From the NCBI GenBank assembly GCA_016206665.1, contig JACQRC010000100.1, forward strand, positions 33 to 64,032: DNA of 64,000 bases, read 5' to 3'. The stretch comes from Candidatus Omnitrophota bacterium (GTDB lineage Bacteria; Omnitrophota; Gorgyraeia; Aquiviventales; JACQRC01). The first letter of the stretch is position 1; each line of letters opens with the position of its first letter. This document shows positions 5,338 to 42,335 of the stretch, one piece after another. The notes below the pieces were generated by a model. The model did no database searches and was not told where the DNA came from. It was given only the letters and a program-made list of their open reading frames with translations. The position numbers were made by a program, and so were the translations under genes.

Positions 5338-5363
5338 CAGGGAAAACTTCTTAAAAGTATGAT
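5334..5363 (+). promoter_or_regulatory. Sigma70-like promoter candidate TTGACA-N18-TATGAT upstream of the barrel gene
   Basis: TTGACA at 5334..5339 (contains the stop TGA of paralog B) and TATGAT at 5358..5363. Lies in an AT-rich 78-bp gap. RBS AGGAGAGG at 5398..5405, 10 nt before ATG 5416. Confidence 0.4.
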
Positions 5364-5415
5364 AAAATGACGTTTAGCATCAACCGCACAAGCGCTTAGG
5401 AGAGGTTGCTGGCGT

Positions 5416-10019: not shown

Positions 10020-10033
10020 ATTCCACAGTCGGC

Positions 10034-10062
10034 TTGCAATGGACGGCGCCTTCCCTTATAAT
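10034..10062 (+). promoter_or_regulatory. Sigma70-like promoter candidate TTGCAA-N17-TATAAT upstream of ugd
   Basis: TTGCAA at 10034..10039, 17-nt spacer, TATAAT at 10057..10062. AGGAG at 10079..10083 precedes ATG 10089. Confidence 0.5.
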
Positions 10063-10088
10063 GTCCCCCTGTTCTCACAGGAGCGCGC

Positions 10089-11393: not shown

Positions 11394-11403
11394 CGGAACG
11401 TTC

Positions 11404-13664: not shown

Positions 13665-14792
13665 ATGAGCGTACCCTTCTTCGACCTCCGCCGGCAGTAC
13701 CGCGTGCTGCGCCCGGCGATGGACGCAGCCCTGCGACGCGTCTGTGCCAGCGGCGCCTTCATCCTGGGCCCGGAGGGGCGGGCGCTGGAGTCTGAATTGG
13801 CGCGCCTCTGCTGGGTGCCGCACGCCGTGGGGACGGCTTCAGGCACGGACGCCCTTGAGCTGGCGTTGCAGGCGCTTGGCCTCGGGCCGGGCGATGAGGT
13901 CATCACGACTCCGCTGACCTTCATTGCGACCGCCCAGGCCATTTCGCATACGGGGGCACGGCCCGTCTTCGCCGATGTCGATCCTGTCACCGCGACCCTC
14001 GACCCCGCGCGAGTGGCGCGTGCGATGACGCGTCGCACACGGGCGATCCTGCCCGTCCATCTCTACGGCCAACCCTGTGACATGGCCCCGCTGTTGCGGT
14101 TGGCGAAGCGGCGGGGCTTGCACGTCGTCGAAGATTGTGCCCAGGCCATTGGGGCGACCTTTCAGGGGCGGCCGGTCGGTTCCTTCGGCGACGCGGGGGC
14201 CTTCAGCTTTTATCCGACGAAGAATCTGGGGGCGTACGGCGATGCCGGTGCGGTCGTGACACGCTCCCGGGGGCTTGCCGCGCGGCTGCGGATGCTGCGC
14301 CAGCATGGCAGCGCCGATCGGGTCCGCTATCCCATGCTCGGCCGGAACTCGCGCCTCGATGAGCTCCAGGCGGCGGTGCTGCGGGTCAAGCTGCGGCATC
14401 TGCGGGCGTGGAACGTGGCGCGTCGCCGGCATGCCGCCACCTATCGCCGGCTCTTCAGACGCGCGGGGATCGCGGGAGCAGTGGGGCTGCCCGCCGAGCG
14501 GGCCGGCAGGCAGCACGTCTACCATCACTTCGTGATTCGGGTGCGGCGACGGGATGCGCTGCAGCGATACCTGGAGGGGCGGGGGATCGGTTGCGGCATC
14601 TACTATGCGCCGCCGCTCCATCTTCAGCCGCTCTATCGGGTGCTGGGCTACCGGCGCGGCGAGTTCCCCGTTGCGGAACGATTCAGTCAGGAGATCCTCT
14701 CTCTGCCGATGTACCCTGAATTGACCGCGAGCCAGCTGAGCCGGGTGGTGGATGCGGTTCGTGCCTTCATGCAGCGGAGAAGTACCAGTTGA
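13665..14792 (+). CDS. DegT/DnrJ/EryC1/StrS-family PLP-dependent sugar aminotransferase
   Basis: 375 aa. Family-typical N-terminus VPFFDLRRQY...ILGPEGRALESELA, TASGTDALELAL, and FSFYPTKNLGAYGDAG with Lys. Confidence 0.85.
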   Translation: MSVPFFDLRRQYRVLRPAMDAALRRVCASGAFILGPEGRALESELARLCWVPHAVGTASGTDALELALQALGLGPGDEVITTPLTFIATAQAISHTGARPVFADVDPVTATLDPARVARAMTRRTRAILPVHLYGQPCDMAPLLRLAKRRGLHVVEDCAQAIGATFQGRPVGSFGDAGAFSFYPTKNLGAYGDAGAVVTRSRGLAARLRMLRQHGSADRVRYPMLGRNSRLDELQAAVLRVKLRHLRAWNVARRRHAATYRRLFRRAGIAGAVGLPAERAGRQHVYHHFVIRVRRRDALQRYLEGRGIGCGIYYAPPLHLQPLYRVLGYRRGEFPVAERFSQEILSLPMYPELTASQLSRVVDAVRAFMQRRSTS

Positions 14793-14818
14793 CGGTGTGG
14801 GCAGGGGTTATGTACAAT
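14789..14818 (+). promoter_or_regulatory. Sigma70-like promoter candidate TTGACG-N18-TACAAT
   Basis: TTGACG at 14789..14794 (contains the stop TGA of the upstream gene) and TACAAT at 14813..14818. Lies in a 66-bp AT-richer gap. RBS AAGGAG at 14838..14843. Confidence 0.45.
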
Positions 14819-14849
14819 AGGACGTTCCAAATTTTTTAAGGAGCCATTC

Positions 14850-14864
14850 GTTCAACAAATGAAC
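14850..14864. promoter_or_regulatory. Palindromic operator-like site GTTCA-ACAAA-TGAAC overlapping the uxs start codon
   Basis: Read directly. Same GTTCA-N5-TGAAC architecture as the sites at 42286..42300 and 42321..42335. ATG 14859 is embedded in the site. Confidence 0.5.
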
Positions 14865-15800
14865 ATGCGGGTGCTCATCACAGGGGGCGCAGGATTCATC
14901 GGCTCCCACCTGTGCGAACGATTCCTCGCCGAAGGCCACACCGTGCTGTGCCTGGATAACTTCCTGACCGGCTCTGATGCCAATATCGCCCACCTGAAGG
15001 GCCAGCCGCGCTTTCAGCTCATCTTGCATAACATCGCCCAGCCCCTCGAGGTCGGCGGGAGCCTGGCCTACGTGCTCCACTTCGCCTCACCCGCCAGTCC
15101 CGTTGATTACCTGAAATTCCCTATTCAAACGTTGAAGGTCGGCTCCCTCGGCACGCTGAATGCCTTGGGCATTGCCAAGGCGAAGCGGGCCAAATTTTTG
15201 CTCGCCTCCACCTCGGAAGTGTATGGCGACCCCCAAGTCCATCCTCAGCCGGAGAGTTATTGGGGGCACGTCAACCCGGTCGGACCGCGCGGCGTCTATG
15301 ACGAGGCCAAGCGCTTCGCCGAGGCGTTGACGATGGCGTATCACCGCGAGCACGGCCTCGATACGCGGATCGCGCGCATCTTCAACACCTACGGACCGCG
15401 GATGCGCTTGAATGATGGTCGGGCCGTTCCCACCTTCATTGCCCAGGCGCTGCGCGGCGAGCCGCTCACCGTCTTTGGGGACGGCCGGCAGACCCGCAGC
15501 TTCTGCTACATCGACGACCTCGTTGAGGGCCTCCGGCGCGTGATGGATGCCGCCGTCCATGAGCCGATCAACGTCGGCAATCCCGACGAGCGGTCGATTC
15601 TGGAGATCGCCCAGCAGGTGCTGGCTTCCTGCAACGGCACGCAGAGCCGCGTGGAGTTCCGCCCGTTGCCGGAGGATGATCCCAAGCAGCGCCGGCCCGA
15701 TATCTCGAAGATCACCCGCCTGACGGGCTGGCAGCCGCGGGTCAGCCTCGATGAGGGATTGCCGGCGACGGTCGCCTGGTTCCGAGAGCATTGGAACTGA
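14859..15800 (+). CDS. uxs: UDP-glucuronate decarboxylase (UDP-xylose synthase)
   Basis: 313 aa. [64 protein letters not shown]...[12 protein letters not shown] is the characteristic UXS block. Confidence 0.88.
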
Positions 15801-17728
15801 TGGCCACCCCTGTCGAAGCGCCGCCTGAGCCACCGATGACGAGCGGTCCGAGCACCCGCCCCAGGCGGTCAGCTGCTCGGGGTTGGCTGATGGTCCTCGC
15901 CAGCACGCTGCTCACCCTGCTGTTATTAGAGGGGGCGATGCGGCTCTGGCGGCCCCAAAGTGAGTATGCCATCACGTGGGCCCCCTGGGGTTTCATCCAT
16001 CAACCCAACGCGACCATCACCTATTACACCGAAAAGCCCCGCCCCGGCAGGAAAGACGACAGCGGCATCCCGCCGCATCCCGTCAAAATCCATTACAACG
16101 CTCATGGATTTCGTGAGTTCGACTACCCCTACGCGAAACCGCCAGGCACCTTCCGTATCCTCTTTCTGGGGGATTCCTGGGCGGAGGACATGGGCAGTTA
16201 CTTCGAGAATCTCCATACGAAACACTTGGAGCGGAAACTGAATGCCCTCGGGCTGCCCCAGAAGTTTGAGGTGATCAACGCCGGCCATTACGCTTATGAC
16301 AATGCGCAGGAGCTGATGCTCTACCTCAACGAAGGCATCAAGTTCCAGCCCGATCTGGTGACGGTGCTGTATGTGGGCGATACGGCCAAACCCGAGCTGG
16401 CGACCGTGGAGCAGGGCGAGCTGCGGCTGCACGACCAACGGTATACGCCAATACAGAAGTTCTACCGGGCCATCGTGACGTGGACTCGTTCCCACTCGCA
16501 CCTGGGCAGCTTTCTCCTGAATGAGCTCTACCGCGTCAAGCACATTCAGCAGTGGCTGGTGGCGCATAAATGGAAGGAAGCCCCGGTGCCGGTGCCGTCG
16601 GTGCACGTCGCAGTCGCCGCCGAGATGCCGCCCCAAGCGGCGCTCATCCCTGCGCCTGCCACACCGCCCAAGACAGCGGCGCCCGCCCCGGTAGTGCCAG
16701 CGCAACCCACAGCACCGTCGCGTGACCCGCTCGTTGGTGTACCGACAGGCGTCAATCTCCTGCTCAACAGCTCCTTCGGAAGCTGGTCGCTGGGCGATGA
16801 GGATGACCCCGACTACTGGGTGGCTGGCTTTACCACGCCAGGATTCTCAGTCAAACGTGCCGTGACCGATGCCCGTCACGGGCGCTCTGCTTGTCGTCTG
16901 ATCAATCAGACTCCCGACGGGTGCCGTCTCAGCCAGGACCCGGTGATGATGGTGGATCCGGCGGGGCAGCGGCTTCGCTGGACTCAACTGCGCGGGAAAA
17001 CCGTGACGGCCGGGTGCTGGGTCAAGACCTCGACCCCTGAGGCCGTTTGGCTCTTTCTTCATGATGGGATCAGCGGCGCCGAATCGCCGCGCCATTCCGG
17101 CAGCGGAGCGTGGGAGTTCCTCACCACGACCCTCAATGTGCCTGGTGCGGCGTCGTCACTCGATTACCGCGTCATGGTGGGCAAAGGTGCTACGGTGGAT
17201 GTGGACGCCGCGACGCTCGCGCTGGGCCGGCGACCCGCGCAGCCGTTCCTGCCGGAGGGGGAGGAAGCCGACCAGATCGCAGCCCACCGGACGAAGATCC
17301 GCGAGCAGCTCGCTGCAGCCCAGGGCACCCTGGTGCCGCCGTCGCAGCTGCCGGAAGAGCTGATCGAAGAACAGGATGCCGAGTTCGCGCTGGTTGACCA
17401 GTTGATCTGGAAGAAATTCCGGGACACGGCCAAGGCGCAGGGGGGGCAATTCATCTTCCTGTCCGTAAGCCCGCTGACGCCATCCGAGCGCCTGTTCTTG
17501 AAGGAAGCCGGGATTCCTTGGCTGAGCTTCAAGCTGCCCTTCAACCCGAATGAACGACGGCAGAAAGACCTGCTCGCCGGCCGGTATGATCCCAGCCAGG
17601 ACTCCCACCGGTTCGGCTACCAGGCCAATGCGGAGGTGGCCGAGCAGATGCTGCAGTACCTGAAGGCGCGCCAGTTCATCCCCATGCCACAGCCACAGCA
17701 TGAAGGCGCTGGTTCTCGCCGCCGGTGA
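15800..17728 (+). CDS. Membrane-anchored SGNH/GDSL-like hydrolase or acyltransferase with inserted Pro/Ala linker and CBM4/9-like carbohydrate-binding-type domain
   Basis: ORF track starts at TTG 15791. ATG 15800 overlaps the upstream stop (TGATG). One N-terminal TM helix (WLMVLASTLLTLLLLEGA). FRILFLGDSWAED (GDS block). P/A-rich linker. NLLLNSSFGSW...GKTVTAGCWVKT...ATVDVDAATLALG resembles CBM_4_9. C-terminal QDSHRFGY (Asp/His block). Confidence 0.45.
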   Translation: MATPVEAPPEPPMTSGPSTRPRRSAARGWLMVLASTLLTLLLLEGAMRLWRPQSEYAITWAPWGFIHQPNATITYYTEKPRPGRKDDSGIPPHPVKIHYNAHGFREFDYPYAKPPGTFRILFLGDSWAEDMGSYFENLHTKHLERKLNALGLPQKFEVINAGHYAYDNAQELMLYLNEGIKFQPDLVTVLYVGDTAKPELATVEQGELRLHDQRYTPIQKFYRAIVTWTRSHSHLGSFLLNELYRVKHIQQWLVAHKWKEAPVPVPSVHVAVAAEMPPQAALIPAPATPPKTAAPAPVVPAQPTAPSRDPLVGVPTGVNLLLNSSFGSWSLGDEDDPDYWVAGFTTPGFSVKRAVTDARHGRSACRLINQTPDGCRLSQDPVMMVDPAGQRLRWTQLRGKTVTAGCWVKTSTPEAVWLFLHDGISGAESPRHSGSGAWEFLTTTLNVPGAASSLDYRVMVGKGATVDVDAATLALGRRPAQPFLPEGEEADQIAAHRTKIREQLAAAQGTLVPPSQLPEELIEEQDAEFALVDQLIWKKFRDTAKAQGGQFIFLSVSPLTPSERLFLKEAGIPWLSFKLPFNPNERRQKDLLAGRYDPSQDSHRFGYQANAEVAEQMLQYLKARQFIPMPQPQHEGAGSRRR

Positions 17729-18419
17729 AGGGCGCCGGCTGGGCGCCTTGACGGCCGACCGGCCGAAGCCGATGCTCCCGATCGGAGGCGTTCCGGTCCT
17801 GGAGCGGACCCTGCGGTGGCTGGCGCTGCACGGCATCCGGCAGATTGCCATCAATCTGCACCATCAGCCGCACACCATCCGCGCCCATGTGGGCGACGGC
17901 CGGCCGTTCGGTGTCCAGGCGACCTACTCGCTGGAACCCCGGCTGCTGGGCACGGCGGGTGCCGTCCGGCCCCTCGCCCGATGGCTGGATGAGCCGTTTC
18001 TGGTCGTGTATGGCGATAACCTGTTCGAGATCGACCTGACCGCCTTCATCGCCTCACACCGACGGCACGGCGGCGACGGCACCATCGCCCTGCATCATCG
18101 CGAGGACCCCACCGCCAGCGGGATCGCCGCCCTCGATGGCGAGGGACGCCTCACGCGGTTTGTGGAAAAACCGTCGCCCGACCAGGTCTTCAGCCATTGG
18201 GTGAGCGCCGGCCTCATGGTCTGGGAACCGCGGGTGGTGGCCGACATTCCTACCACCATTCCCTGCGACTGGGGGCGGGATCTGCTACCCCAGTGGGCCA
18301 CGGCCAAACGGATCTATGGGTACCAGCTGCCACCCACCGACCGCATCTGGTGGATGGATACGCCGGAGGATTACGCGCGCGCCCAGGCGGCCTTCGCCGC
18401 CACGGCACACACCAGCTAA
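17700..18419 (+). CDS. hddC: Sugar-1-phosphate nucleotidylyltransferase, D-glycero-alpha-D-manno-heptose-1-phosphate guanylyltransferase-like
   Basis: 239 aa. MKALVLAAGEGRRLG...DRPKPMLPIGG signature of NTP-transferase family. Sits adjacent to gmhA and near the hddA-like kinase. Confidence 0.6.
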   Translation: MKALVLAAGEGRRLGALTADRPKPMLPIGGVPVLERTLRWLALHGIRQIAINLHHQPHTIRAHVGDGRPFGVQATYSLEPRLLGTAGAVRPLARWLDEPFLVVYGDNLFEIDLTAFIASHRRHGGDGTIALHHREDPTASGIAALDGEGRLTRFVEKPSPDQVFSHWVSAGLMVWEPRVVADIPTTIPCDWGRDLLPQWATAKRIYGYQLPPTDRIWWMDTPEDYARAQAAFAATAHTS

Positions 18420-18432
18420 CGAGGAGCCGCTC

Positions 18433-19086
18433 ATGCCCACCGCCACCCGACGCCAGCCAACGCCGCGACCAGCATCCGACGCCGAGCTGATCGACAGCTA
18501 CATCGACGCCATGGGCACCCTCATGAAGGGCGTGCCCCGCGCCACCATCCAACGGGCAGTAGATCTCCTGTTTGACGCCTGGCAGCGGCACGCGGCCATC
18601 TACGTGGCAGGCAACGGCGGTTCGGCCTCGACCGCGTCGCACTTCGCGAGCGATCTCGCCAAATTCACCATCGCGGAAGGCCGGCCGCGCTTCAAGGTGG
18701 TCAGCCTCACCGACAACGTGCCGCTGGTGAGCGCCTGGACGAACGACTCCGGCTTCGGCTCGATCTTCGCCGAACAGATGGAGCCGTGGTTCCAAGCCGG
18801 CGACGGGCTGGTGGCCTTTTCAGTGCATGGCGGTTCCGGCAGCGGGGAGGCGGGCCCCTGGTCGCAGAACCTGACGCGCGCCGTAACACTCGCAAAACAG
18901 CGGCGCGGCTTTGTCATCGGCTTTTCCGGGTTCGACGGCGGGATGCTCAAGGCCGAGGCCGATGCCTGCATGGTGGTTCCCGCATCGCAGGAGCCGATGG
19001 CTACCCCCTTGGTCGAATCGCTCCATGTGGCCTTGCATCATCTGGTCTGCGTGGCGCTCAAAGTCCGCATCGCCGGCCGCGCGTAA
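18433..19086 (+). CDS. gmhA: Sedoheptulose-7-phosphate isomerase (SIS domain)
   Basis: ORF track starts at 18316. ATG 18433 is preceded by GAGGAG (18421..18426). IYVAGNGGSASTASHFASDL is the GmhA/SIS motif. Confidence 0.8.
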   Translation: MPTATRRQPTPRPASDAELIDSYIDAMGTLMKGVPRATIQRAVDLLFDAWQRHAAIYVAGNGGSASTASHFASDLAKFTIAEGRPRFKVVSLTDNVPLVSAWTNDSGFGSIFAEQMEPWFQAGDGLVAFSVHGGSGSGEAGPWSQNLTRAVTLAKQRRGFVIGFSGFDGGMLKAEADACMVVPASQEPMATPLVESLHVALHHLVCVALKVRIAGRA

Positions 19087-19108
19087 GACGCACCGAACGG
19101 CACGTCGC

Positions 19109-20977
19109 ATGCCCAAGCCGCTCCACATCCTCGGCGTCAACAACGGCCACAACGCCTCGGCCTGCCTCATCCGCGACGGCGAGCTCCTCGCCGCCTGCGA
19201 GCAGGAGCGGATGAATCGGGAGAAATACACCGCGGCCTTCCCGCAGGAGGCGATCGACGCGTGCTTGCGCGAGGGGGGCATCGACTGGCGGGGCGTCGAT
19301 ATCGTGGCCTTCCCGTGGGTGCGGCGGGACTTCCTGGCGAAGCGGGTCTTCTACCACACGATCCGGTACTATCCGCGGACCTGCCGCTGGTTCGCCGTCG
19401 TGAGCGAAAACGTCCTGCCCAACTATTTCGCCGCGACGTGGCGGATGCGGCGCGCCGGGTTCCGCGGGCAGTTCCGCATGGTCAATCACCATGACGCGCA
19501 TGCCGCCAGCGCTTTTTTTGTTTCGCCGTTCGAGCGCTCCGCCGTCCTCTCCGTCGACGGGGCCGGCGAATACAACTGCTCGGTCTTCTATCACGGGCAG
19601 GGCCACCGTCTGACGCGGCTGCAGGCGATCGACCTGCCGCATTCGGTGGGCGGCCTCTACGAGGTCATCTCCGTCTACCTCGGCTTTGATCTGCTCGAGG
19701 GGCCGGGCAAGGTCATGGGCCTGGCGGCCTTCGGGCAGCCCACCTATGCGGAGGTCTTCAGGCAATTTGTGACATGCCTGCCCGAGGGACGTTACGCCAT
19801 CGATTGCGACACGCTCAATTTGATCGGCGTTAGCGGCGAGCACTTCACCCCGAAGCTGCGCTCGCTGCTGGGCCCGCCGCGACGGGAGGGGGAACCCCTG
19901 ACCCAGCGGCACAAGGACATCGCAGCGAGCCTGCAGGAGATCGCCGAGGAATTGATGCTGCACATGGCGAGGCATCTGCATGCCACGACCGGTGAGCGGC
20001 GGCTGTGCCTCGCCGGGGGCGTGGCGCTCAACAGCGTCGCCAATGACCGCCTCCTCCGGGAAACGCCCTTTCAAGAGGTCTACATTCAGGCGGGCACGCA
20101 CGACGCGGGGACGGCGTTGGGGGCGGCCTATGCGGTCTACCATCAACAGTTGGGCTACCCGCGCCGGTTCGTGATGACCCACGCCTATTGGGGCCCGCGC
20201 TACTCGGCGCAGGAGATCGAGACGTGCCTCCGGGATCGTCCCGTCCGGTGGGAGCGGCTGTCACCGGCCGCAGTGCCGCAGCGCGTGGCGGAGGCGCTGG
20301 CGACCGGCAAGGTCGTGGGGTGGTTCCAGGACCGAATGGAGTTCGGTCCGCGGGCCCTGGGCAATCGCTCGATCCTCGCGGACCCTCGGCGGGCGACCGT
20401 GAAGGAGGAGTTGAACGCGAAGGTGAAATACCGCGAGGAGTTCCGTCCTTTTGCGCCCGCCGTCACGCGCGAAGCCTGCGCGGACTATTTTTCACCCGCT
20501 TACGACTCGCCCTTTATGCTGCTCGTTGCCGATACGCGCTCCGACAAACAGCAGATGGTGCCGGCGATCGTCCATGTCGACGGCACCGCGCGGTTGCAGA
20601 CGGTCGACCGAGAGACCAACCAGCGATTCTGGGAGCTGATCAAGGCCTTCGAGCAGCGGACGGGCGTGCCGGTCCTGCTGAACACGTCCTTCAACGTGCA
20701 CGAACCGATCGTCTGCTCGCCGGAGGATGCGGTGCGCACTTTTGAGGAATCCCGGATCGACCTGCTGGTCCTCGGCGACTATCTGGTGGAGCGCAACGGC
20801 CATGCCGTCGAGCCGTCGCGGTTGGCATCGAGCCGCCGGACGGTCCGGCGGGGCCTGCTCGAGCGCGCCCTGCGGTCCGGCTACTTCCGCGTCGTCGCCC
20901 CGGCGCTGTATTACACCCTCTTTCTCATCCTGGCGCTGGGGTATCACGCCTACCGGCGGGTGCGCCGGCTCGCATGA
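19109..20977 (+). CDS. NodU/CmcH-family O-carbamoyltransferase with C-terminal hydrophobic helix
   Basis: ORF track starts at 18911. ATG 19109 gives MPKPLHILGVNNGHNASACLIRDGELLAACEQERMNREK, typical of the carbamoyltransferase N domain. C domain has ...VDGTARLQTV...PVLLNTSFN. C-terminal YYTLFLILALGYHAY. Confidence 0.85.
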   Translation: MPKPLHILGVNNGHNASACLIRDGELLAACEQERMNREKYTAAFPQEAIDACLREGGIDWRGVDIVAFPWVRRDFLAKRVFYHTIRYYPRTCRWFAVVSENVLPNYFAATWRMRRAGFRGQFRMVNHHDAHAASAFFVSPFERSAVLSVDGAGEYNCSVFYHGQGHRLTRLQAIDLPHSVGGLYEVISVYLGFDLLEGPGKVMGLAAFGQPTYAEVFRQFVTCLPEGRYAIDCDTLNLIGVSGEHFTPKLRSLLGPPRREGEPLTQRHKDIAASLQEIAEELMLHMARHLHATTGERRLCLAGGVALNSVANDRLLRETPFQEVYIQAGTHDAGTALGAAYAVYHQQLGYPRRFVMTHAYWGPRYSAQEIETCLRDRPVRWERLSPAAVPQRVAEALATGKVVGWFQDRMEFGPRALGNRSILADPRRATVKEELNAKVKYREEFRPFAPAVTREACADYFSPAYDSPFMLLVADTRSDKQQMVPAIVHVDGTARLQTVDRETNQRFWELIKAFEQRTGVPVLLNTSFNVHEPIVCSPEDAVRTFEESRIDLLVLGDYLVERNGHAVEPSRLASSRRTVRRGLLERALRSGYFRVVAPALYYTLFLILALGYHAYRRVRRLA

Positions 20978-21963
20978 TCATCACGCGCACCCCGTTTCGC
21001 GTGCCGCTGGGCGGCGGGGGCACCGATTTGCCGGCCTACTCCTCGCGGCATGGCGGCTTCGTCCTGGGGGCTGCGATCGACAAATACATGTACATCACCC
21101 TGAGCCGCCGGCCCATCGACGACCGGTTGTGGATCAGCTACTCCAAGGTCGAGGTCGTGGATGCCATCGGGCAGATCCATCATGAGCTGGTGCGCGAGGC
21201 CCTGCAGCTCGTGGGTATTGCGCGGGGGATCGAGATCCATTCCATCTCGGAGGTCGTCGGCGGCACCGGGATGGGCTCATCGGCCTGCTTTACGGTGGGG
21301 CTCCTCAACGCGCTCCACGCGCTGAGCCGCAAGCCGGCCACCGTCAAGGACCTCGCCGAGGAGGCGTACCACATCGAGGTGGAACGGCTCGGCCACCCGA
21401 GTGGGAAACAGGACCAGTATCTCGTGGCCCACGGTGGCTTGACGTGCCTCCATATCGATGTCAACGGCCAGGTGCGGGTGGAACCGCTGTTGTTGTCCAC
21501 CCAGACGCTGGAGGCGCTGCAGGAGCGGCTGCTCATGTTCTACACCGGCATCGAGCGGGCCTCGGCGCAGATCTTGAGCGACCAGTCCGCCGGAGCCAGC
21601 CGCGGCGACGGCGAGGTCGTTGAGCAGATGCACGAGATCAAACGCATCGGCCTGGCCAGCAAGGAGGCGTTGGAGCGCGGCGAGGTGGACCGGTTCGGCG
21701 CGCTGTTAGATGAGCATTGGCAGGCCAAGCGCCGCATCTCCGCCAGGATGAGCAACGGCTGGATCGACGAATGTTACACGGAGGCCAGGCGCCTCGGCGT
21801 GACGGGCGGCAAGATCATCGGCGCCGGCGGGGGAGGCTTTTTCCTGTTCTACTGTCCGGGGGACAAGCAGCCGTTGCGCGAACGCTTGACCCAGATGGGA
21901 TTGCGCGAGATGCCGTTCCGGTTCGATTTTTCCGGCACCCAAGTGGTGGCCAATTTCTCATGA
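20974..21963 (+). CDS. hddA: GHMP-family kinase, D-glycero-alpha-D-manno-heptose-7-phosphate kinase-like
   Basis: 329 aa. ATGA overlap with the upstream gene. MIITRTPFRVPLGGGGTDLPAY... and GTGMGSSACFTVGLLNAL (GHMP motif II). Confidence 0.7.
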   Translation: MIITRTPFRVPLGGGGTDLPAYSSRHGGFVLGAAIDKYMYITLSRRPIDDRLWISYSKVEVVDAIGQIHHELVREALQLVGIARGIEIHSISEVVGGTGMGSSACFTVGLLNALHALSRKPATVKDLAEEAYHIEVERLGHPSGKQDQYLVAHGGLTCLHIDVNGQVRVEPLLLSTQTLEALQERLLMFYTGIERASAQILSDQSAGASRGDGEVVEQMHEIKRIGLASKEALERGEVDRFGALLDEHWQAKRRISARMSNGWIDECYTEARRLGVTGGKIIGAGGGGFFLFYCPGDKQPLRERLTQMGLREMPFRFDFSGTQVVANFS

Positions 21964-23294
21964 GCCTCGGGCAGCGCCTGCAGCGATGGTTGGATCTGAC
22001 GCTGGCGGTGCTCGTCCTGGTCATGCTGAGTGCGTGGCTGGTGGTGTGGTGCGCGTTACGCCAGCTGCGGTCACGCCGGCGCCGGACGCACGATCGGCCG
22101 CCGCGCATGGTGCAGATGGTGAGCGGCTCGATCGAGGGCGAGCAGCGCCGCAACGCCTTCGGGCGGCTGACCGACACCGATTATGGCTGGTTCGAGCACG
22201 TCTTTCATGTCTACTTCTACGCGCCGACGGCCGCACGGCAATCGGCGGGCCCGCGGCACAGCCTCATCAATTGGCGATTGTCGCCACTCGAGGGGTTGCG
22301 CGCCGCCGGGTGGAAACGGCTGCACCTGGCGCTCCACGAAGTGGCTTTTCTGGGTTGGCTCGGGCGATTCATCTCTCGCGAAGGCATTGCGGTGATCGAT
22401 GCAGCCGATCCCTATGTGACCGGCGTGAACGCCTGGTTGGGGAGCGTGGTGACTGGCGTGCCCTATACGGTCGAAATCCACCGTGACTATGATCTGGATT
22501 ACCGGCTGTTAGGGCGGCCCCATTTCGCGTACTTTCCTTCGTGGCAGGCGGAGCGGCGGGTGGGAGGATGGGTACTGCGGCACGCGCACCGCGTGATCGC
22601 CGACCACGACTGTTACGCGCGCTATGCGCTGGCGAACGGCGCCCGGCCTGAGCGGATCGTGAAGGTGCGGGCCACGAGCAATCTGGGCCGGCCGGGGTAT
22701 GCCCTGGCGGAGCAACCGCGCCCGCAGGCGCGCACCCGCTATGAGGCGGATGGGCGGCGCCTGCTCGTCTATGTCGGCCGGCTCGACCCGGATAAATTCG
22801 TCGAGGATCTCGTGCCGTGCCTCGAGCGTGTCGTGGCGCGGCGTCGTGACGTGCGTCTGCTGCTGGCCGGGGACGGCAGTCTCCGCGCCTCCCTGCTGCA
22901 GGCGGCGCGCGAGCGAGGATTGAGCGACTACATCCGTTGGTTGGGATCCTTGTCGCTCCCGGACGTCCTCGATCTCTTCTCGGCAGCCGATGTGGTGGTG
23001 GGTACGCATTTGGGGGCGACCTACCTGGAGGCGGCGCTCTGCGGCGCGCCCCTCGTGGCCTACGACATCGACCGCCATCCGGAGTTCATTCACGACGGTG
23101 AGACGGGGATGTTAGCGCCTTTTCGTGATGCGCAGCGCTTGTCCGAAGCGGTCCTGCGCGTGCTCGACGATGCCGCCCTGGCCGACCGACTGCGCCGAGG
23201 CGCCAAACGGCGCGTCCTCGAGCAGCACCGCCCCGAGCATTACATGGAGGATATGCGCCGCTGTTTTCAGGAGCTGCTGGGGGTGGTGGCATGA
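21960..23294 (+). CDS. Glycosyltransferase family 4 (GT-B, Glycos_transf_1 domain) with N-terminal TM helix
   Basis: ORF track starts at 21717. ATG 21960 overlaps the upstream stop (ATGA). LLVYVGRLDPDKF...RLLLAGDGSLR...EAALCGAPLVAYDIDRHPEFIHDGETG (E-x7-E-type GT1 motif). Confidence 0.8.
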   Translation: MSLGQRLQRWLDLTLAVLVLVMLSAWLVVWCALRQLRSRRRRTHDRPPRMVQMVSGSIEGEQRRNAFGRLTDTDYGWFEHVFHVYFYAPTAARQSAGPRHSLINWRLSPLEGLRAAGWKRLHLALHEVAFLGWLGRFISREGIAVIDAADPYVTGVNAWLGSVVTGVPYTVEIHRDYDLDYRLLGRPHFAYFPSWQAERRVGGWVLRHAHRVIADHDCYARYALANGARPERIVKVRATSNLGRPGYALAEQPRPQARTRYEADGRRLLVYVGRLDPDKFVEDLVPCLERVVARRRDVRLLLAGDGSLRASLLQAARERGLSDYIRWLGSLSLPDVLDLFSAADVVVGTHLGATYLEAALCGAPLVAYDIDRHPEFIHDGETGMLAPFRDAQRLSEAVLRVLDDAALADRLRRGAKRRVLEQHRPEHYMEDMRRCFQELLGVVA

Positions 23295-24952
23295 AGCGGC
23301 TCTGGGTGCTGGCGGCGATCGTGGTGGTCGGTGCGATCCCGCGGTTCTACCAGTGGCGCCAGGTGGGGCTCTTGACGCATGACGACGCCGCGGTCATGAA
23401 TGTCACCGGCACGGCGCTGGCGGCCGCCAACGTCGTGGGGCGCCACGCCGGTGACTTGCTGAGCCATCGCTGGACGCTGGCGGACGTGGAAGCCGCCGTG
23501 CACGCCGAGTTTGGTCCCGCCGATCTCCTTCAACGAGGAAAGCCGGGCCTGTTTCCCTTCTTGCTGCTCGGGGCGGGACTGACCGGTGTGTCGGATATGA
23601 CGCCCGCGCTGTGGATGGCCTGCTGTAGTCTGGCGGCGGCGCTGGCGGTGTATCTGCTGGGCCGCGAGGCGTGGGGGTCTGCCGTGGGCGGCGTGGCGGG
23701 CCTGCTCTTCGTCCTGTCGGGTCAGGTCTTGGTCTTTTCGCGCAACTACAAGATGGAAATCGCCCCCATGTGGCTGTGGTTGACATTAGGCACGTGGGCG
23801 TACCTGCGGGCGCGCCGCAGCGAGCGCCTGAGGTGGGTGGTGTTGAGTGGGCTGTTGGTGGGCTATGCCTTTACTTGCCATTACAGCATTCTGCTGTGGG
23901 TCGCCCTGTTTCCGCTCTTTGAACTGGCGTGGCCAGCCGATCCGGCGTGGCCGATCCATCGTCGGCTGAGGCGTGTCCTCGTCTGGGCTGGCGTGGCGGT
24001 CGTACCGGCCGTGCTGTTCCAACTCGCGACACTCGCCATCCGGCAGGTGTGGTTGCCGTTCATCACCTATTGGGGATCCGTGGGGTATCAGTTGAGTCAG
24101 CAGCAGCATCAGTCGCTGCCGGCCGATCCCTGGTACTACCTCTATTTTCTGTGGCGGCTGGACGGGCCGGCGAGCTTCCTCTGGCTGACGTTCGGCGCGG
24201 CAACGCTGACCTGGGCATGGCTCAGGCAGCGCGCGTTCGCCGCGGCACTACTCCTGACCCTGTGTACCGTGCCCCTGCTGGTCTTAAGCCTCTCAACGGC
24301 ATCGATCTTTACCGTGCCTCGCACCCTCGCGCCAGCGCTGCCCTTCCTGGCCGTGATGGCGGCGGTGGGGCTGGTGCGCTCCTCCGAGATCGTGGGACGC
24401 AGACTGCCGCAGCCGAGGCTGGCCTTGGCGCTGGCCGTCGGCATGACCGCCGCCGTGAACCTCCACCAGATTCTGCCGTTGACGCAGTGGCGCGCCGGCT
24501 ACCGCGACGCGGTCCGCTTCATCGCGAGCCGCACGGACTCCGGAGTGGCCGATCTAACGGACGCGCCGATCTGGCAATTCTATCTCCGTCGCACCGCCTT
24601 CGCGACCTCCGACCGGCAGGCCCTGGAGCAGCTCTACCGCTCCGGGCAGATCCGGTATCTGGCCGTGAGCCCCACAGCCACCATCCTGGCTACCTATCCC
24701 TCCAGTCTACCGGGGTCGATTCTGCATGAGTTTCAGGCCGTCGCGACGATGGTGGTGGACGTGCCGACCGTCGCCGAGTTTGAGCAGCCGGTAGTCGGGG
24801 AGCTGGACTATCTGGCTGAGGTGGGTCATCTGACGCGGCATCAGGTCCTGGAGATTCAGCGCCAGCCGGAACTGCGGCGGATCCGGCTCTATGATCTGGC
24901 CCAGCTCTTCGGGCCGCTTCAGACGGCGGCAGCAGCCGAGCGCAGCCCATGA
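23291..24952 (+). CDS. Polytopic GT-C-type glycosyltransferase (ArnT/PMT_2-like)
   Basis: 553 aa. ATGA overlap with the upstream gene. More than 10 predicted TM helices. First-loop acidic motif LLTHDDAAV. Soluble C-terminal domain. Followed by a polyprenyl-phosphate GT2-type gene. Confidence 0.6.
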   Translation: MKRLWVLAAIVVVGAIPRFYQWRQVGLLTHDDAAVMNVTGTALAAANVVGRHAGDLLSHRWTLADVEAAVHAEFGPADLLQRGKPGLFPFLLLGAGLTGVSDMTPALWMACCSLAAALAVYLLGREAWGSAVGGVAGLLFVLSGQVLVFSRNYKMEIAPMWLWLTLGTWAYLRARRSERLRWVVLSGLLVGYAFTCHYSILLWVALFPLFELAWPADPAWPIHRRLRRVLVWAGVAVVPAVLFQLATLAIRQVWLPFITYWGSVGYQLSQQQHQSLPADPWYYLYFLWRLDGPASFLWLTFGAATLTWAWLRQRAFAAALLLTLCTVPLLVLSLSTASIFTVPRTLAPALPFLAVMAAVGLVRSSEIVGRRLPQPRLALALAVGMTAAVNLHQILPLTQWRAGYRDAVRFIASRTDSGVADLTDAPIWQFYLRRTAFATSDRQALEQLYRSGQIRYLAVSPTATILATYPSSLPGSILHEFQAVATMVVDVPTVAEFEQPVVGELDYLAEVGHLTRHQVLEIQRQPELRRIRLYDLAQLFGPLQTAAAAERSP

Positions 24953-25653
24953 GCCTCCCGAGCCCTGCGCGGCGCCCGACGCTGACCGTGGCGATGTGCG
25001 TCTACAATGAGCGTCCGACCGCGCTCGACGTGTTCCGCAGGGTGCAGGCCGCGCCCCCCATCGACAAGGAGATCATCATCGTCGACAACTGCTCGACCGA
25101 CGGCACGCGGGAGCTGCTCCAGCAGCTGGACGGGCAGGCGACGGTGGTGCTGCACCCAAAGAATTTGGGCAAAGGGGCCTCGGTGCGGACCGCCATTGCG
25201 CGGGCGACCGGCGAGTACTTCATCATCCAGGATGCGGACACCGAGTATGACCCCGCCGAGTACCCCAAGCTGCTCGCCCGGGCCAGGGCCACCGGCGCGG
25301 ACGCGGTCTACGGCTCCCGGACGCTCACCGGACGCACGACCAAATATCTGCGGTTTTACTTCGGCGTGCAGCTGCTCACGTGGTTGACGAATCTGCTGTA
25401 CGGCGTGCATCTGACCGATGTGGCCACGGGTTTGAAGATGGTCAAGACCGACGTGATCCAGCAACTGCCCCTGCGGACCTCCGGCTTCGACTTCGACTTC
25501 GAGCTGACGAACCTGTTGTGCAAACGCGGCTGCCGTGTGGAGGAGGTGTCGATCGCGTACCACCCGCGCACCTTCGCCGAGGGCAAGAAGGTCCGCGCCT
25601 GGGACGGCGTGCGCGGGTTGTGGGTGATTCTCAAGAATCGTTTTGCGGATTGA
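24949..25653 (+). CDS. GT2 glycosyltransferase, polyprenyl-phosphate sugar synthase-like (Dpm1/ArnC/GtrB type)
   Basis: 234 aa. LTVAMCVYNE...IIIVDNCSTDGT...IIQDADTEYDP (DxD). Confidence 0.75.
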   Translation: MSLPSPARRPTLTVAMCVYNERPTALDVFRRVQAAPPIDKEIIIVDNCSTDGTRELLQQLDGQATVVLHPKNLGKGASVRTAIARATGEYFIIQDADTEYDPAEYPKLLARARATGADAVYGSRTLTGRTTKYLRFYFGVQLLTWLTNLLYGVHLTDVATGLKMVKTDVIQQLPLRTSGFDFDFELTNLLCKRGCRVEEVSIAYHPRTFAEGKKVRAWDGVRGLWVILKNRFAD

Positions 25654-25664
25654 GGAGCTGACGC

Positions 25665-26456
25665 ATGAAGACGGTCATTCTGTGCGGGGGGCTGGGGACG
25701 CGGTTGCGGGAGGAGACGGAGTTCCGGCCGAAGACGATGGTGCAAATCGGGGGCCATCCCATCCTCTGGCACATCATGCAGCTCTACGCCCACCACGGGT
25801 TCAACGAGTTCGTGCTCTGCCTGGGCCACCGGGGCGACGACATCAAGCAATATTTCCTGAACTACCCGTTCTACCACAGCGACTTCACCATCGAGGTGGG
25901 ACGGCCCGGGCGCGCCGTCGAGTTCCACGGCGGCCATCACGCGACGGGCTGGCGGGTGACGTGCGTCGATACCGGGCTGCAGACGCAGACAGGGGCGCGC
26001 CTGAAGCGGGTCGCCGGCTACGTGCCGGACGATACCTTTCTCTTCACGTACGGGGACGGGGTCGCGAATGTCGATCTCAAGCGGCTGATGGCGTTCCACC
26101 GCTCCCACGGCAAGATCGCGACGGTCACCGGCGTGCACCCCCCTTCGCGCTTCGGTGAGTTGCTGGTGCAAGGCGAGCGGGTGCAGGAGTTCAGCGAGAA
26201 ACCGCTCATCTCTGAGGGCCGCATCAACGGCGGCTTCTTTGTGCTGCAGCGCCGCATCTTTGACTATCTCTCGGATGAGGAGCTGCTCATCTTTGAGCGC
26301 GGGCCGCTCGAGCGGCTCGCCAAAGACGGGCAGCTGATGATGTATGCCCATGATGGCTTCTGGCAGTGCCTGGATACGCCGCGGGATCTGCAGCTGCTCA
26401 CCGAGCTGTGGGCGCAGGGGCGTCCCCCGTGGAAGGTGTGGGACAGCCGGTCATGA
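25665..26456 (+). CDS. rfbF: Glucose-1-phosphate cytidylyltransferase
   Basis: 263 aa. MKTVILCGGLGTRLREETEFRPKTMVQIGGHPILWHIMQLYAHHGFNEFVLCLGHRGDDIKQYF is near-diagnostic for RfbF/DdhA. Confidence 0.88.
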   Translation: MKTVILCGGLGTRLREETEFRPKTMVQIGGHPILWHIMQLYAHHGFNEFVLCLGHRGDDIKQYFLNYPFYHSDFTIEVGRPGRAVEFHGGHHATGWRVTCVDTGLQTQTGARLKRVAGYVPDDTFLFTYGDGVANVDLKRLMAFHRSHGKIATVTGVHPPSRFGELLVQGERVQEFSEKPLISEGRINGGFFVLQRRIFDYLSDEELLIFERGPLERLAKDGQLMMYAHDGFWQCLDTPRDLQLLTELWAQGRPPWKVWDSRS

Positions 26457-27424
26457 CCCTCGCAGGAGCGCGCGTCCTCGTCACGGGTGCCGCAGGGTTT
26501 CTGGCCTCGCACGTGGTGCGCCGCCTGCTCGCCTCCGGCGCTGAGGTGCATGGATGGGTGCGGCCGACGACGGACGCGTGGCGGCTCGCCGAGATGCGGT
26601 CCCGCCTGACGTTGCATCAGGTCGACCTGCGGGAGGCCGACCAGGTGCGGCAGGCCGTCGACCGCATTCGTCCATCGGTGTGCTTTCATTTGGCGGCGTA
26701 CGGCCTGAGCGCACGTCAGCATGATTGGGACGAGGCGGTGCGGACGAATGTGCTGGGTACCACGCACCTGCTGCAGGCGCTGGGAGCCGGCGGATGTCAG
26801 CGGCTGGTCTACACGACCACCTGTCACGAATATGCCTCGAAGGCGGAGGCCCTCAACGAGGAGGACCCGGTGGCGCCCCTCGAGCTCTACGGCAGCACCA
26901 AGGCGGCCGCCACCGCCGTGGTGCGGGCGTGGGCCTCAGGCGTCGGGCTGCCCACGGTGGTGCTGCGGTTGTTCGGGGTCTACGGCCCCTACGATGGGAC
27001 GAATAAGTTGATCCCCAACACGATCACCGCGCTGCTGAGCCGCCAGGTGGCGGCGGTCTCTCCGTGCGAGGTGGTGCGCGACTACACCTACGTCGATGAT
27101 ATCGTCGAGGGCATCCTGCGTTCCGCGGAGGCGTCCCTGAGCGGTGTCGTGACCATCAATCTGGGGTCCGGCCAGCCCGTCTCCCTGCGGCAGCTGGTGG
27201 AAGCGATCGCCGCACAGCTCGGCGGGCGTGTGGAGTTCGGCGCCATCCCGCCGCGCGCCGGCGAGGCGCAGAGCCTCTGGGCGGATGTCCGTCGGGCGGA
27301 AACGCTCCTGCACTGGCGCGCCACGGTCTCCTGGGAAGACGGGTTGCGCCGGACGATTGCCTGGTTTCGCACCCATGCGCGACACGAGCCGCTCTCCTCT
27401 TCGGCAGGGACGGCGCATGGCTGA
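26453..27424 (+). CDS. NAD(P)-dependent SDR epimerase/reductase (possibly CDP-4-keto-sugar reductase/epimerase)
   Basis: ORF track starts at 26366. ATG 26453 overlaps the upstream stop (ATGA). VLVTGAAGFLASHV. YGSTKAAA (YxxxK). Lies between rfbF and rfbG. Confidence 0.6.
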   Translation: MTLAGARVLVTGAAGFLASHVVRRLLASGAEVHGWVRPTTDAWRLAEMRSRLTLHQVDLREADQVRQAVDRIRPSVCFHLAAYGLSARQHDWDEAVRTNVLGTTHLLQALGAGGCQRLVYTTTCHEYASKAEALNEEDPVAPLELYGSTKAAATAVVRAWASGVGLPTVVLRLFGVYGPYDGTNKLIPNTITALLSRQVAAVSPCEVVRDYTYVDDIVEGILRSAEASLSGVVTINLGSGQPVSLRQLVEAIAAQLGGRVEFGAIPPRAGEAQSLWADVRRAETLLHWRATVSWEDGLRRTIAWFRTHARHEPLSSSAGTAHG

Positions 27425-29792: not shown

Positions 29793-29800
29793 GGAATCGC

Positions 29801-31153: not shown

Positions 31154-31160
31154 ACGGACC

Positions 31161-35581: not shown

Positions 35582-35585
35582 GGGT

Positions 35586-40970: not shown

Positions 40971-40980
40971 GGACCGGAGC

Positions 40981-42273: not shown

Positions 42274-42276
42274 GGT
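42248..42276 (+). promoter_or_regulatory. Sigma70-like promoter candidate TTGACA-N17-TAAGGT upstream of the regulator gene
   Basis: Perfect -35 TTGACA at 42248..42253 (inside the 3' end of the upstream CDS). TAAGGT at 42271..42276, whose TAA is the upstream stop codon. Confidence 0.4.
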
Positions 42277-42283
42277 AAACCCA

Positions 42284-42302
42284 ATGTTCATCATATGAAC
42301 AT
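42284..42302. promoter_or_regulatory. Palindromic operator-like site ATGTTCAT-CAT-ATGAACAT (core GTTCA-N5-TGAAC)
   Basis: Read directly. 8-bp perfect inverted arms. Lies immediately downstream of the candidate -10. Confidence 0.55.
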
Positions 42303-42320
42303 AAGGAATAAGGATAGCAC

Positions 42321-42335
42321 GTTCATTTAATGAAC
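42321..42335. promoter_or_regulatory. Palindromic operator-like site GTTCAT-TTA-ATGAAC overlapping the regulator start codon
   Basis: Read directly. 6-bp perfect inverted arms. ATG 42330 is embedded in the site. Confidence 0.55.

What the first reader, a model, noticed from the sequence alone, without database searches (positions are those of the whole stretch)
14789..14864. The same palindrome sits on the RBS/start codon of the uxs-led 27-kb operon, 27 kb upstream of the regulator gene
Seen: GTTCA-ACAAA-TGAAC at 14850..14864 overlaps ATG 14859 of uxs. It is preceded by TTGACG-N18-TACAAT (14789..14818) and AAGGAG (14838..14843). In both operons the first codons are ATG AAC because the half-site TGAAC includes the start codon. 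I did not see the motif in the other two gaps (5338..5415 and 10020..10088), but I could not scan the coding sequence exhaustively by eye. Inference: one regulator coordinates the two largest transcription units of the glycan locus. A site at the start codon suggests roadblock or occlusion rather than -35/-10 competition.
Basis: partly seen in the sequence, partly recalled or inferred. Interest (0 to 1): 0.55.

Follow-up and report, generated by a model that had tools for sequence, protein, structure and literature searches.

The report
Repressor operator heading a glycan operon
A 15-bp palindrome just before the first gene of a 27-kb sugar-polymer operon is a third copy of the binding site that an uncharacterised winged-helix regulator family carries at its own promoter in many bacterial phyla, so the regulator probably gates this operon too; this is ordinary gene-regulation logic, but for a regulator nobody has studied.

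Summary
GTTCAACAAATGAAC lies at 14850-14864, behind TTGACG-N18-TACAAT and AAGGAG. The core GTTCA-N5-TGAAC occurs only three times in 64 kb (0.02 expected), and the other two copies lie at the promoter of the regulator gene at 42330.

In 80 genomic loci encoding homologues of that regulator (six or more phyla), every locus with upstream sequence (77 of 77) has this palindrome at the promoter of the regulator's operon. No copy lies anywhere except at a promoter. 80 control UXS loci have none. It is therefore very probably the operator of this winged-helix + Rossmann-like regulator family, which has no solved structure and no literature.

The uxs copy sits about +27 to +41 from the predicted start of transcription. 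The family norm is overlap with the -10/+1 region, so a roadblock or promoter-escape block is the likeliest action. This is inferred, not shown.

Two corrections:
- UXS homologues begin MR[VIL]L, so the true start may be ATG 14865. The palindrome would then abut the start codon rather than contain it.
- The site is absent at UXS in all related loci recovered, including the true DegT|UXS junction. Control of uxs is therefore lineage-specific. Other genomes place the operator on other sugar-nucleotide operons.

The parts
14789..14818 (+). Predicted sigma-70-type promoter P3 (TTGACG-N18-TACAAT); the -35 hexamer overlaps the DegT stop codon
   Evidence: It is one of only three matches of at least 10/12 in 64 kb, and all three lie in intergenic gaps.
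14838..14843 (+). Shine-Dalgarno-like AAGGAG, 15 nt before ATG 14859 and 21 nt before ATG 14865
   Evidence: Spacing at the two palindrome-free promoters is only 5-10 nt.
14850..14864 (.). Operator copy w1, GTTCA-ACAAA-TGAAC, about +27 to +41 from the predicted transcription start
   Evidence: The core is identical to the family operator. Its flank and spacer score is at about the 95th percentile of random window 23-mers, though at the 13th percentile of family sites.
14859..15800 (+). uxs (UDP-glucuronate decarboxylase-like SDR); alternative, probably conserved, start at ATG 14865
   Evidence: (E 3e-111 to human UXS1).
14859..42273 (+). uxs-led run of about 21 co-directional glycan-synthesis genes. 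It has no gap larger than 11 bp between maximal ORFs and no further strong promoter match.
42248..42276 (+). Weaker promoter P4 of the regulator operon (TTGACA-N17-TAAGGT, 9 of 12 matches)
   Evidence: It is below the threshold of the scan tool.
42286..42300 (.). Operator copy w2, GTTCA-TCATA-TGAAC, 9 nt after the -10 (about +3 to +17)
   Evidence: It is conserved in the 93%-identical relative L171.
42321..42335 (.). Operator copy w3, GTTCA-TTTAA-TGAAC, containing the regulator's ATG 42330
   Evidence: The start is supported by the homologue alignment.
42330..42962 (+). Regulator gene: winged helix-turn-helix, a long helix, and a Rossmann-like C2185-like_N domain (GxGExxE motif)
42959..43525 (+). 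GmhB-like HAD phosphatase gene, coupled to the regulator through a GTGA overlap; first enzyme gene of the regulator-led operon
   Evidence: Its homologue in L008 has its own promoter and operator.

Best explanation
The palindrome at 14850-14864 is a DNA operator for the winged-helix regulator encoded at 42330-42962. That protein belongs to a widespread, unstudied two-domain family: a MarR-like wHTH plus a Rossmann-like C2185-like_N domain. Presumably as a dimer, it binds GTTCA-N5-TGAAC at its own promoter and autoregulates. In this genome a third copy sits in the 5' leader of the uxs-led 27-kb operon, between the SD-like AAGGAG and the start codon, about +27 to +41 from the predicted transcription start. 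Bound there, the protein would most likely repress by blocking promoter escape or elongation (a roadblock). Because no terminator separates uxs from the upstream operon, it would also stop read-through from that operon. The Rossmann-like domain is the likely ligand sensor (nucleotide or nucleotide-sugar) that releases the block.

Shown: the motif, its statistics, its family-wide association with the regulator's promoter, and the promoter-like elements.

Inferred: binding, dimer state, repression, the roadblock mechanism and the ligand.
For: 1. Three exact copies in 64 kb against 0.02 expected, with no near-copies. The chance of one landing in this 66-bp gap is about 2.5e-5 (0.02 x 80/64000).
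2. In 80 loci encoding regulator homologues (43-61% identical; Omnitrophota, Nitrospirota, Methylomirabilota, Acidobacteriota, Planctomycetota and others) there are 85 exact copies in 1.18 Mb against 0.6 expected.
3. Of the 77 loci with upstream sequence, 65 have an exact copy within 300 bp upstream of the regulator. Eight have a 1-mismatch copy at the same place, four have exact copies at the head of the operon containing the regulator, and none lacks it.
4. The arms are invariant while the 5-nt spacer varies freely. The recognition helix and wing are also near-invariant (ALGLTN..R, NRIRYL.TP.G).
5. The operator sits 15-16 nt after a TTGAC(A) -35 in 41 cases, or abuts the -10. That is the standard repressor position.
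6. The eight copies not directly upstream of the regulator all sit at promoters of sugar-nucleotide operons: a GmhB-like phosphatase in L008, a CMP-sugar cytidylyltransferase in L011, RmlC in L040 and others. A uxs target fits that theme.
7. The negative control of 80 UXS loci (482 kb) has no copy.
8. The promoter P3 is credible, and there is no terminator in the gap.
9. The AF2 model (pLDDT 90) shows a MarR-like wHTH plus a Rossmann-like domain.
Against: 1. There are no binding or expression data.
2. The site is not conserved at the UXS start in any related locus recovered (L161, L163, L165-L170, L172-L174; UXS 73-80% identical). In L173/L174 the same DegT|UXS junction is a 26-bp gap with neither promoter nor palindrome.
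3. Its position, 31 nt after the -10 with no promoter-proximal partner site, is atypical for the family. Roadblocks are usually weaker than promoter occlusion.
4. Its spacer and flanks score only at the 13th percentile of family sites.
5. The transcription start is predicted, not mapped.
Confidence: 0.62

Rival explanations
1. RNA-level element. In the mRNA the palindrome forms a 5-bp hairpin between the SD-like AAGGAG and the start codon. It either sequesters AUG 14859, or shortens the 21-nt SD-to-AUG 14865 distance to about 6 nt and so tunes translation initiation.
For: The hairpin appears in the predicted minimum-energy and centroid folds. SD-to-ATG spacing is unusually long (14-15 nt) at exactly the two starts carrying the palindrome, against 5-10 nt at the other two promoters. 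UXS homologues start at the codon directly after the hairpin.
Against: The fold is no more stable than shuffles (z = -0.39), and 5 bp with a 5-nt loop is marginal. In most family loci the palindrome overlaps the -10 or starts 15-16 nt after the -35, so it is not transcribed as a whole. Selection therefore acts on DNA. At the regulator gene no start codon follows the hairpin.
Confidence: 0.1
2. A chance or decaying copy. The sequence matches the operator core but has no regulatory role at uxs.
For: It is not conserved at UXS in any relative recovered. Its position is atypical for the family. Its spacer and flanks are of low quality compared with family sites.
Against: The expected number is 0.02 per window. 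The site falls in one of very few intergenic gaps, right behind one of only three strong promoter matches. In 1.18 Mb of related loci no exact copy lies outside a promoter region.
Confidence: 0.08
3. The site is bound by the regulator but acts differently. It could work through cooperative or looping interactions, through anti-repression, or as an activator element, for example by stabilising the transcript or remodelling the leader.
For: The sign of regulation is untested. The C-terminal domain could mediate higher-order assembly. Paired sites about 22 bp apart are common in the family.
Against: A site downstream of the transcription start is a repressor position by general knowledge. The nearest partner sites are 27 kb away. 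Family sites overlap the -10/+1 region.
Confidence: 0.12
4. The palindrome is recognised by another DNA-binding protein that merely co-occurs with these loci.
For: No binding data exist. Related loci encode other small wHTH proteins (LexA_DNA_bind) next to UXS.
Against: The only gene invariably next to the palindrome in 77 of 77 loci is this regulator. The window has no LexA-like gene at the junction. Loci with the LexA-like gene lack the palindrome there.
Confidence: 0.05

Closest known systems
MarR-family autorepressors (e.g. MarR, MepR, HcaR)
   Same: Both have a winged-helix DNA-reading head; structural hits are MepR 3eco/4lln and HcaR 4rgu, and sequence hits are MarR and FabT. Both use a short palindromic operator at the regulator's own promoter, overlapping the -10/+1 region. 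In both, additional target operons carry the same site.
   Different: The window protein is below the Pfam MarR and MarR_2 cut-offs. It has an extra ~110-aa Rossmann-like C-terminal domain in place of the MarR C-terminal dimerisation helices. The uxs copy lies well downstream of the promoter.
TIGR04176, MarR family EPS-associated transcriptional regulator
   Same: It is the best NCBIfam match to residues 8-95 (E 5e-20). Both occur in polysaccharide loci.
   Different: The score of 71.5 is below the cut-off of 88. The model is a single ~105-aa domain, whereas this protein has 210 aa and a second domain. No operator or experimental study was found for either.
Rex redox repressor (wHTH + Rossmann NADH sensor)
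   Same: The overall design is the same: an N-terminal winged helix, a C-terminal Rossmann-type domain with a glycine-rich loop (GxGExxE), a palindromic operator, and presumed release by a ligand.
   Different: No Rex chain appears among the 50 fold matches listed or the 15 sequence matches. The best C-domain match is the uncharacterised 2g6t (C2185-like_N). From my own knowledge, the Rex operator is TTGTGAA-N4-TTCACAA, with the arms in the opposite arrangement.
Roadblock repression by operators in the transcribed leader (e.g. CcpA cre sites, CodY, PurR at purB, LacI O1), from general knowledge
   Same: The operator is placed downstream of the transcription start. It would also stop polymerases arriving from an upstream operon.
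   Different: Here the position rests on a predicted promoter only, and no blocking has been shown. For this family it is the exception rather than the rule.

Membership tests
Operator set of the locus's wHTH regulator family (defined here) | Exact GTTCA-N5-TGAAC core with invariant arms | tested here: met
   The family core comes from 85 sites in 80 loci.
Operator set of the locus's wHTH regulator family (defined here) | Flanks T/C at -1 and A/G at +15 | tested here: met
   w1 has C at -1 (12 of 85 family sites) and A at +15 (39 of 85). The flank and spacer score is low for the family (13th percentile) but at about the 95th percentile of random sequence.
Operator set of the locus's wHTH regulator family (defined here) | Located at or directly behind a TTGAC(A)-type promoter of a sugar-nucleotide or glycan operon | tested here: met
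   TTGACG-N18-TACAAT lies 31 nt upstream. This is farther than the family mode of overlap with the -10.
Operator set of the locus's wHTH regulator family (defined here) | Conserved at the orthologous junction in related genomes | tested here: not met
   There is no palindrome at the UXS start in L161, L163, L165-L170 or L172-L174. No closer relatives with DNA were found.
Operator set of the locus's wHTH regulator family (defined here) | Physically bound by the regulator | not testable with these tools
   Needs EMSA, footprinting or ChIP.
MarR family (Pfam PF01047 / PF12802) | Score above the Pfam gathering threshold | tested here: not met
   MarR scores 16.8 against 24.6, and MarR_2 scores 20.1 against 27. 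HTH_24 passes at 26.4 against 21.9. 24-25 of 26 homologues match MarR models at E up to 0.1.
MarR family (Pfam PF01047 / PF12802) | Winged-helix fold resembling solved MarR proteins | tested here: met
   Foldseek hits to MepR, HcaR and 3k0l have rmsd 2.1-2.4 over about 80 residues.
TIGR04176 MarR_EPS (equivalog) | Score of at least 88 bits over the ~105-aa single-domain model | tested here: not met
   The score is 71.5 bits over residues 8-95 only, and the protein has a second domain.
Rex family | Sequence or fold similarity to Rex | tested here: not met
   No Rex chain appears among the 50 fold matches listed (only the top 50 of 1812 are shown) or the 15 sequence matches. One of 26 homologues has a CoA_binding hit, at E 0.02.
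Roadblock-type repression | Operator inside the transcribed region, downstream of the RNA polymerase footprint | tested here: inconclusive
   The site lies about +27 to +41 from a predicted, not mapped, transcription start.
UDP-glucuronate decarboxylase (UXS) for the first gene | Full-length high-scoring similarity to characterised UXS | tested here: met
   E 3e-111 to human UXS1 (4gll, 2b69) over residues 3-310. No NCBIfam equivalog passes its cut-off.

The most novel reading that the evidence does not exclude
This regulator family is a previously unrecognised, phylum-spanning class of nucleotide- or nucleotide-sugar-sensing repressors: a MarR-like head fused to a C2185-like Rossmann domain, with the universal operator GTTCA-N5-TGAAC. 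In this organism the regulator closes a feedback loop. A precursor made by its own operon (the heptose-type or related pathway beginning with the GmhB-like phosphatase) would release a roadblock at the head of a 27-kb glycan assembly operon, so that assembly genes are transcribed only when precursors are available.
Probability: 0.2. Interest if true: 0.6.

Novelty: new member of a known kind. Interest (0 to 1): 0.42.

Why it matters
Omnitrophota, Nitrospira, Methylomirabilota and their relatives are mostly uncultivated, and almost nothing is known about how they control their very large surface-glycan loci.

This work gives a concrete, testable regulator-operator pair. The protein family has a near-invariant recognition helix. 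Its 15-bp operator is found at the promoter in 77 of 77 informative loci, and its regulon is made of sugar-nucleotide operons. Anyone with the purified protein could test binding and screen ligands directly. The motif could also be used to predict regulons in hundreds of metagenome-assembled genomes.

The uxs site itself shows that regulon membership is fluid: the same operator is recruited to different operons in different lineages. As a mechanism it remains standard repressor-operator logic.

Tried and rejected
1. Metagenome scan for UXS relatives. 80 loci (60-68% identical, 482 kb) held no palindrome at all. They serve as a negative control but are too distant to count as orthologous junctions.
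2. Closest UXS homologues from the protein search, 73-80% identical. None has the site at UXS. Two contigs (P0145, P0121) returned no DNA.
3. Search with the C-terminal 149 aa of the upstream DegT, to catch short contigs spanning the junction. The best hit was only 59% identical, so no closer relative exists in the collection.
4. The 93%-identical regulator contig L171 is only 1.2 kb. It confirms w2 and w3 but carries no uxs.
5. RNA hairpin. It is predicted but no better than shuffles.
6. Duplicated promoter cassette. The uxs and regulator leaders share nothing beyond the palindrome and a few flanking bases, so this was rejected.
7. Alternative promoter placing w1 over a -10, or a leaderless uxs transcript. 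No acceptable -35/-10 pair was found by inspection or by the scan.
8. Rex membership. Rejected.
9. Literature searches for TIGR04176, 'MarR family EPS-associated', PF22674/C2185-like and the motif itself. Nothing relevant was found.
10. The 2-mismatch half-site at 11400, next to the likely start of the second ugd gene. It is at chance level.

Full report
**Observation**

The sequence reads exactly as described. TTGACG is at 14789-14794, and its TGA is the stop codon of the upstream DegT-type aminotransferase. An 18-nt spacer follows, then TACAAT at 14813-14818, AAGGAG at 14838-14843 and GTTCAACAAATGAAC at 14850-14864. In-frame ATGs lie at 14859 and 14865.

The core GTTCA-N5-TGAAC occurs three times in the 64-kb window, at 14850, 42286 and 42321. 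Shuffles predict 0.02, and 0 of 100 shuffles reach three. There is no copy with one mismatch. Copies with two mismatches are at chance level (17 against 14.7), and none lies in the gaps 5338-5415 or 10020-10088.

**Is the gap a promoter?**

The consensus scan finds TTGACG-N18-TACAAT, a 10 of 12 match, where 0.1 is expected per 600 bp. It finds no terminator-like site in 14500-15100. A whole-window scan with the same rule finds only three matches of at least 10/12. All are on the + strand, and each lies in an intergenic gap (5334, 10034, 14789). In a 65.7% G+C sequence that is almost entirely coding, this coincidence makes the three promoters credible.

The regulator's gap has TTGACA-N17-TAAGGT, a 9 of 12 match, which is below the scan tool's threshold. 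From 14859 to 42273 the maximal + strand ORFs tile with no gap above 11 bp. Maximal ORFs overestimate gene length, so true gaps may be somewhat larger.

The run encodes:
- UXS, two nucleotidyltransferases, a SIS isomerase, a GHMP kinase and a carbamoyltransferase;
- GT1/GT4-type, GT2 and PMT_2-type glycosyltransferases;
- sugar epimerases/dehydratases, an aminotransferase, methyltransferases, a flippase-type domain and a GDSL esterase.

The first gene is a UDP-glucuronate decarboxylase homologue, with E 3e-111 to human UXS1.

**What the palindrome is**

The gene at 42330-42962 encodes a 210-aa protein. Its N-terminus is a winged helix-turn-helix:
- HTH_24 is above the Pfam cut-off, while MarR and MarR_2 are below it.
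- The best NCBIfam match is TIGR04176, 'MarR family EPS-associated regulator', at 71.5 bits against a cut-off of 88.

Its C-terminus is a second domain of about 110 aa with an invariant GxGExxE loop. The precomputed Pfam annotation of homologues calls it C2185-like_N. An AlphaFold2 model (pLDDT 90) shows a wHTH, a long helix and a Rossmann-like alpha/beta domain. The best PDB fold match is the uncharacterised 2g6t, with MarR proteins matching the head. No Rex or other characterised two-domain regulator appears. I found no literature on the family, the domain or the motif.

I fetched 80 genomic loci encoding homologues that are 43-61% identical. They come from Omnitrophota, Nitrospirota, Methylomirabilota/Rokubacteria, Acidobacteriota, Planctomycetota, Nitrospinota and others. 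The scan found 384 relatives among the species-representative genomes. These loci hold 85 exact GTTCA-N5-TGAAC copies in 1.18 Mb, against 0.6 expected from composition.

Of the 77 loci that include upstream sequence:
- 65 have an exact copy within 300 bp upstream of the regulator gene;
- 8 have a one-mismatch copy (mostly GTTCGAATGTTGAAC) at the same place;
- 4 have exact copies at the head of the operon that contains the regulator;
- none lacks the element.

The arms are invariant while the 5-nt spacer varies freely. The flanks prefer T/C at -1 and A/G at +15. The recognition helix and wing of the protein are nearly invariant over the same set. This is the classic signature of an autoregulated transcription factor and its operator.

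The negative control is 80 UXS-containing metagenome loci (482 kb). They contain no copy.

**Position rule in the family**

The palindrome most often starts 15-16 nt after a TTGAC(A) -35 hexamer (41 cases), so it overlaps the -10. In Omnitrophota it usually abuts the -10, 20-23 nt after the -35. Second copies follow about 22 bp later. That is a repressor arrangement.

In the window, w2 starts 9 nt after the -10 (about +3 to +17), and w3 covers the regulator's ATG (about +38 to +52). The uxs copy, w1, starts 31 nt after TACAAT (about +27 to +41) and has no promoter-proximal partner. By position, w1 is therefore an outlier. It cannot compete with RNA polymerase for the -35/-10, but it can obstruct promoter escape or elongation.

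No terminator is predicted between the upstream operon (promoter at 10034) and uxs. A block at this position would therefore also stop read-through transcription, which a -10-overlapping operator could not do. This last point is my inference.

**Targets elsewhere**

The eight exact copies in the 80 loci that are not directly upstream of the regulator all sit behind TTGACA promoters, heading these genes:
- a GmhB-like HAD phosphatase (L008/L163, where the operator abuts the -10 and the ATG follows the palindrome);
- a CMP-sugar cytidylyltransferase plus SDR (L011);
- RmlC plus an epimerase (L040, two copies);
- a methyltransferase (L017), a NusG-like paralogue (L039) and an unknown gene (L024), each followed by the regulator.

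The regulon is therefore made of sugar-nucleotide and glycan genes. Second operator-bearing promoters exist in at least two other genomes. In the window, the homologue of the L008 phosphatase (42959-43525) is translationally coupled to the regulator. The same gene is thus controlled either by co-transcription or by its own operator.

**Conservation at the uxs junction**

This is where the finding is weakest. The closest UXS homologues with DNA are 73-80% identical.
- In L161, L163 and L166, which lie on the same contigs as regulator homologues, UXS overlaps the preceding gene and has no palindrome. The palindromes there are at the regulator and phosphatase promoters.
- In L165, L172 and the P0121 contig, a small LexA_DNA_bind gene precedes UXS, and the same is probably true of L170. 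L167-L169 have a 285-bp gap before UXS. No palindrome is present in any of them.
- L173 and L174 have the very same DegT|UXS junction as the window, but it is a 26-bp gap with neither promoter nor palindrome. There the regulator gene follows UXS directly, behind TTGACA-N17-TAAAGT-N10-GTTCAAGGATTGAAC-N7-GTTCACACCATGAAC.

No closer relative could be found. The 93%-identical regulator contig is only 1.2 kb and merely confirms w2 and w3. Operator control of uxs is therefore specific to this lineage, or too recent to test by conservation.

**Start codon**

About 45 of the 50 closest UXS homologues begin M-[RKHN]-x-L-[VIL]-TGG, and human UXS1 aligns from residue 3. This corresponds to ATG 14865, the codon right after the palindrome. 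ATG 14859 is in frame and closer to AAGGAG (15 nt against 21 nt), so either start may be used. The parallel with the regulator gene is real: AAGGAT, 5 nt, palindrome, with the ATG inside the right arm, and this start is supported by the homologue alignment. L001 has the same layout. For uxs, however, it is not secure.

The SD-to-ATG distance is 14-15 nt at both palindrome-bearing starts, against 5-10 nt at the other two promoters. This prompted an RNA-hairpin alternative. The hairpin is predicted, but the leader folds no better than shuffles (z = -0.39). Most family sites are not fully transcribed, so the selected object is DNA.

**Other rivals**

- Chance is unlikely. About 2.5e-5 copies are expected in this gap, and in 1.18 Mb of related loci no exact copy lies outside a promoter.
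- A duplicated promoter cassette is excluded. The two leaders share only the palindrome.
- A different binding protein is unlikely, because the regulator is the only constant neighbour of the motif.

**Verdict**

The element at 14850-14864 is very probably a genuine operator of the locus's own wHTH/Rossmann-like regulator. It links the uxs-led assembly operon to the regulator-led precursor operon. Repression by a block downstream of the promoter is the most likely action (confidence about 0.6 for the whole statement, higher for 'is an operator'). It is a new member of a familiar kind of system. The more interesting result is the family-wide operator of an unstudied regulator class, rather than the uxs copy itself.

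Noticed in passing
window 42959-43525: A GmhB-like HAD phosphatase gene (VNRAVFLDRDGVIN...) starts at GTG 42959 and overlaps the regulator's stop codon (GTGA). The apparent 286-bp gap after the regulator is therefore coding, and the transaldolase-like gene probably starts near ATG 43516.
   Followed up: partly
window 5334-5363, 10034-10062, 14789-14818: These are the only three sigma-70-like promoter matches of at least 10/12 in 64 kb. Each lies in an intergenic gap on the + strand. They suggest at least four or five transcription units, of which only two carry the palindrome.
   Followed up: yes
window 14838-14861 and 42310-42332 versus 5397-5418 and 10058-10091: The SD-like motif is 14-15 nt from the ATG at the two palindrome-bearing starts, but only 5-10 nt at the two palindrome-free promoters. 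The left arm of the operator is wedged between the SD and the ATG.
   Followed up: partly
L165 9705-10004; L172 654-968; P0121 contig (no DNA); probably L170 2390-2760: In several related Omnitrophota-like loci a small LexA_DNA_bind-domain gene sits directly upstream of UXS. It may be a different regulator occupying the same junction.
   Followed up: no
L173 3550-3671 (also L174 1250-1374): In a relative with 79%-identical UXS, the regulator gene follows UXS directly. It lies behind TTGACA-N17-TAAAGT and two operators 22 bp apart. The DegT|UXS junction there is a 26-bp gap without promoter or operator.
   Followed up: yes
L001 9950-10012: TTGACA-N17-TATTGT overlaps the palindrome, and the regulator's ATG lies in the right arm about 7 nt after the -10. 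This suggests a leaderless regulator mRNA in the closest genome-level relative (61% identical).
   Followed up: no
L163 4924-6867: A UDP-glucose dehydrogenase gene there appears to carry an intein (Intein_splicing and LAGLIDADG_3 hits).
   Followed up: no
L039 4619-5195: A NusG-like paralogue is the first gene of the operator-controlled operon, ahead of the regulator. This may link the regulator to an RfaH-type antitermination factor for long glycan operons.
   Followed up: no
window 11400-11414: GTTCATGGCCTCCAC has a perfect left arm only. It overlaps ATG 11404, the likely true start of the second UDP-glucose dehydrogenase gene, 10 nt after the first one's stop. Statistically it is at chance level.
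   Followed up: partly
window 32114-35581: A single 1155-aa ORF combines a Polysacc_synt flippase-type domain, a GT2 domain and a methyltransferase domain. It is either an unusual fusion or several genes merged by the maximal-ORF call.
   Followed up: no
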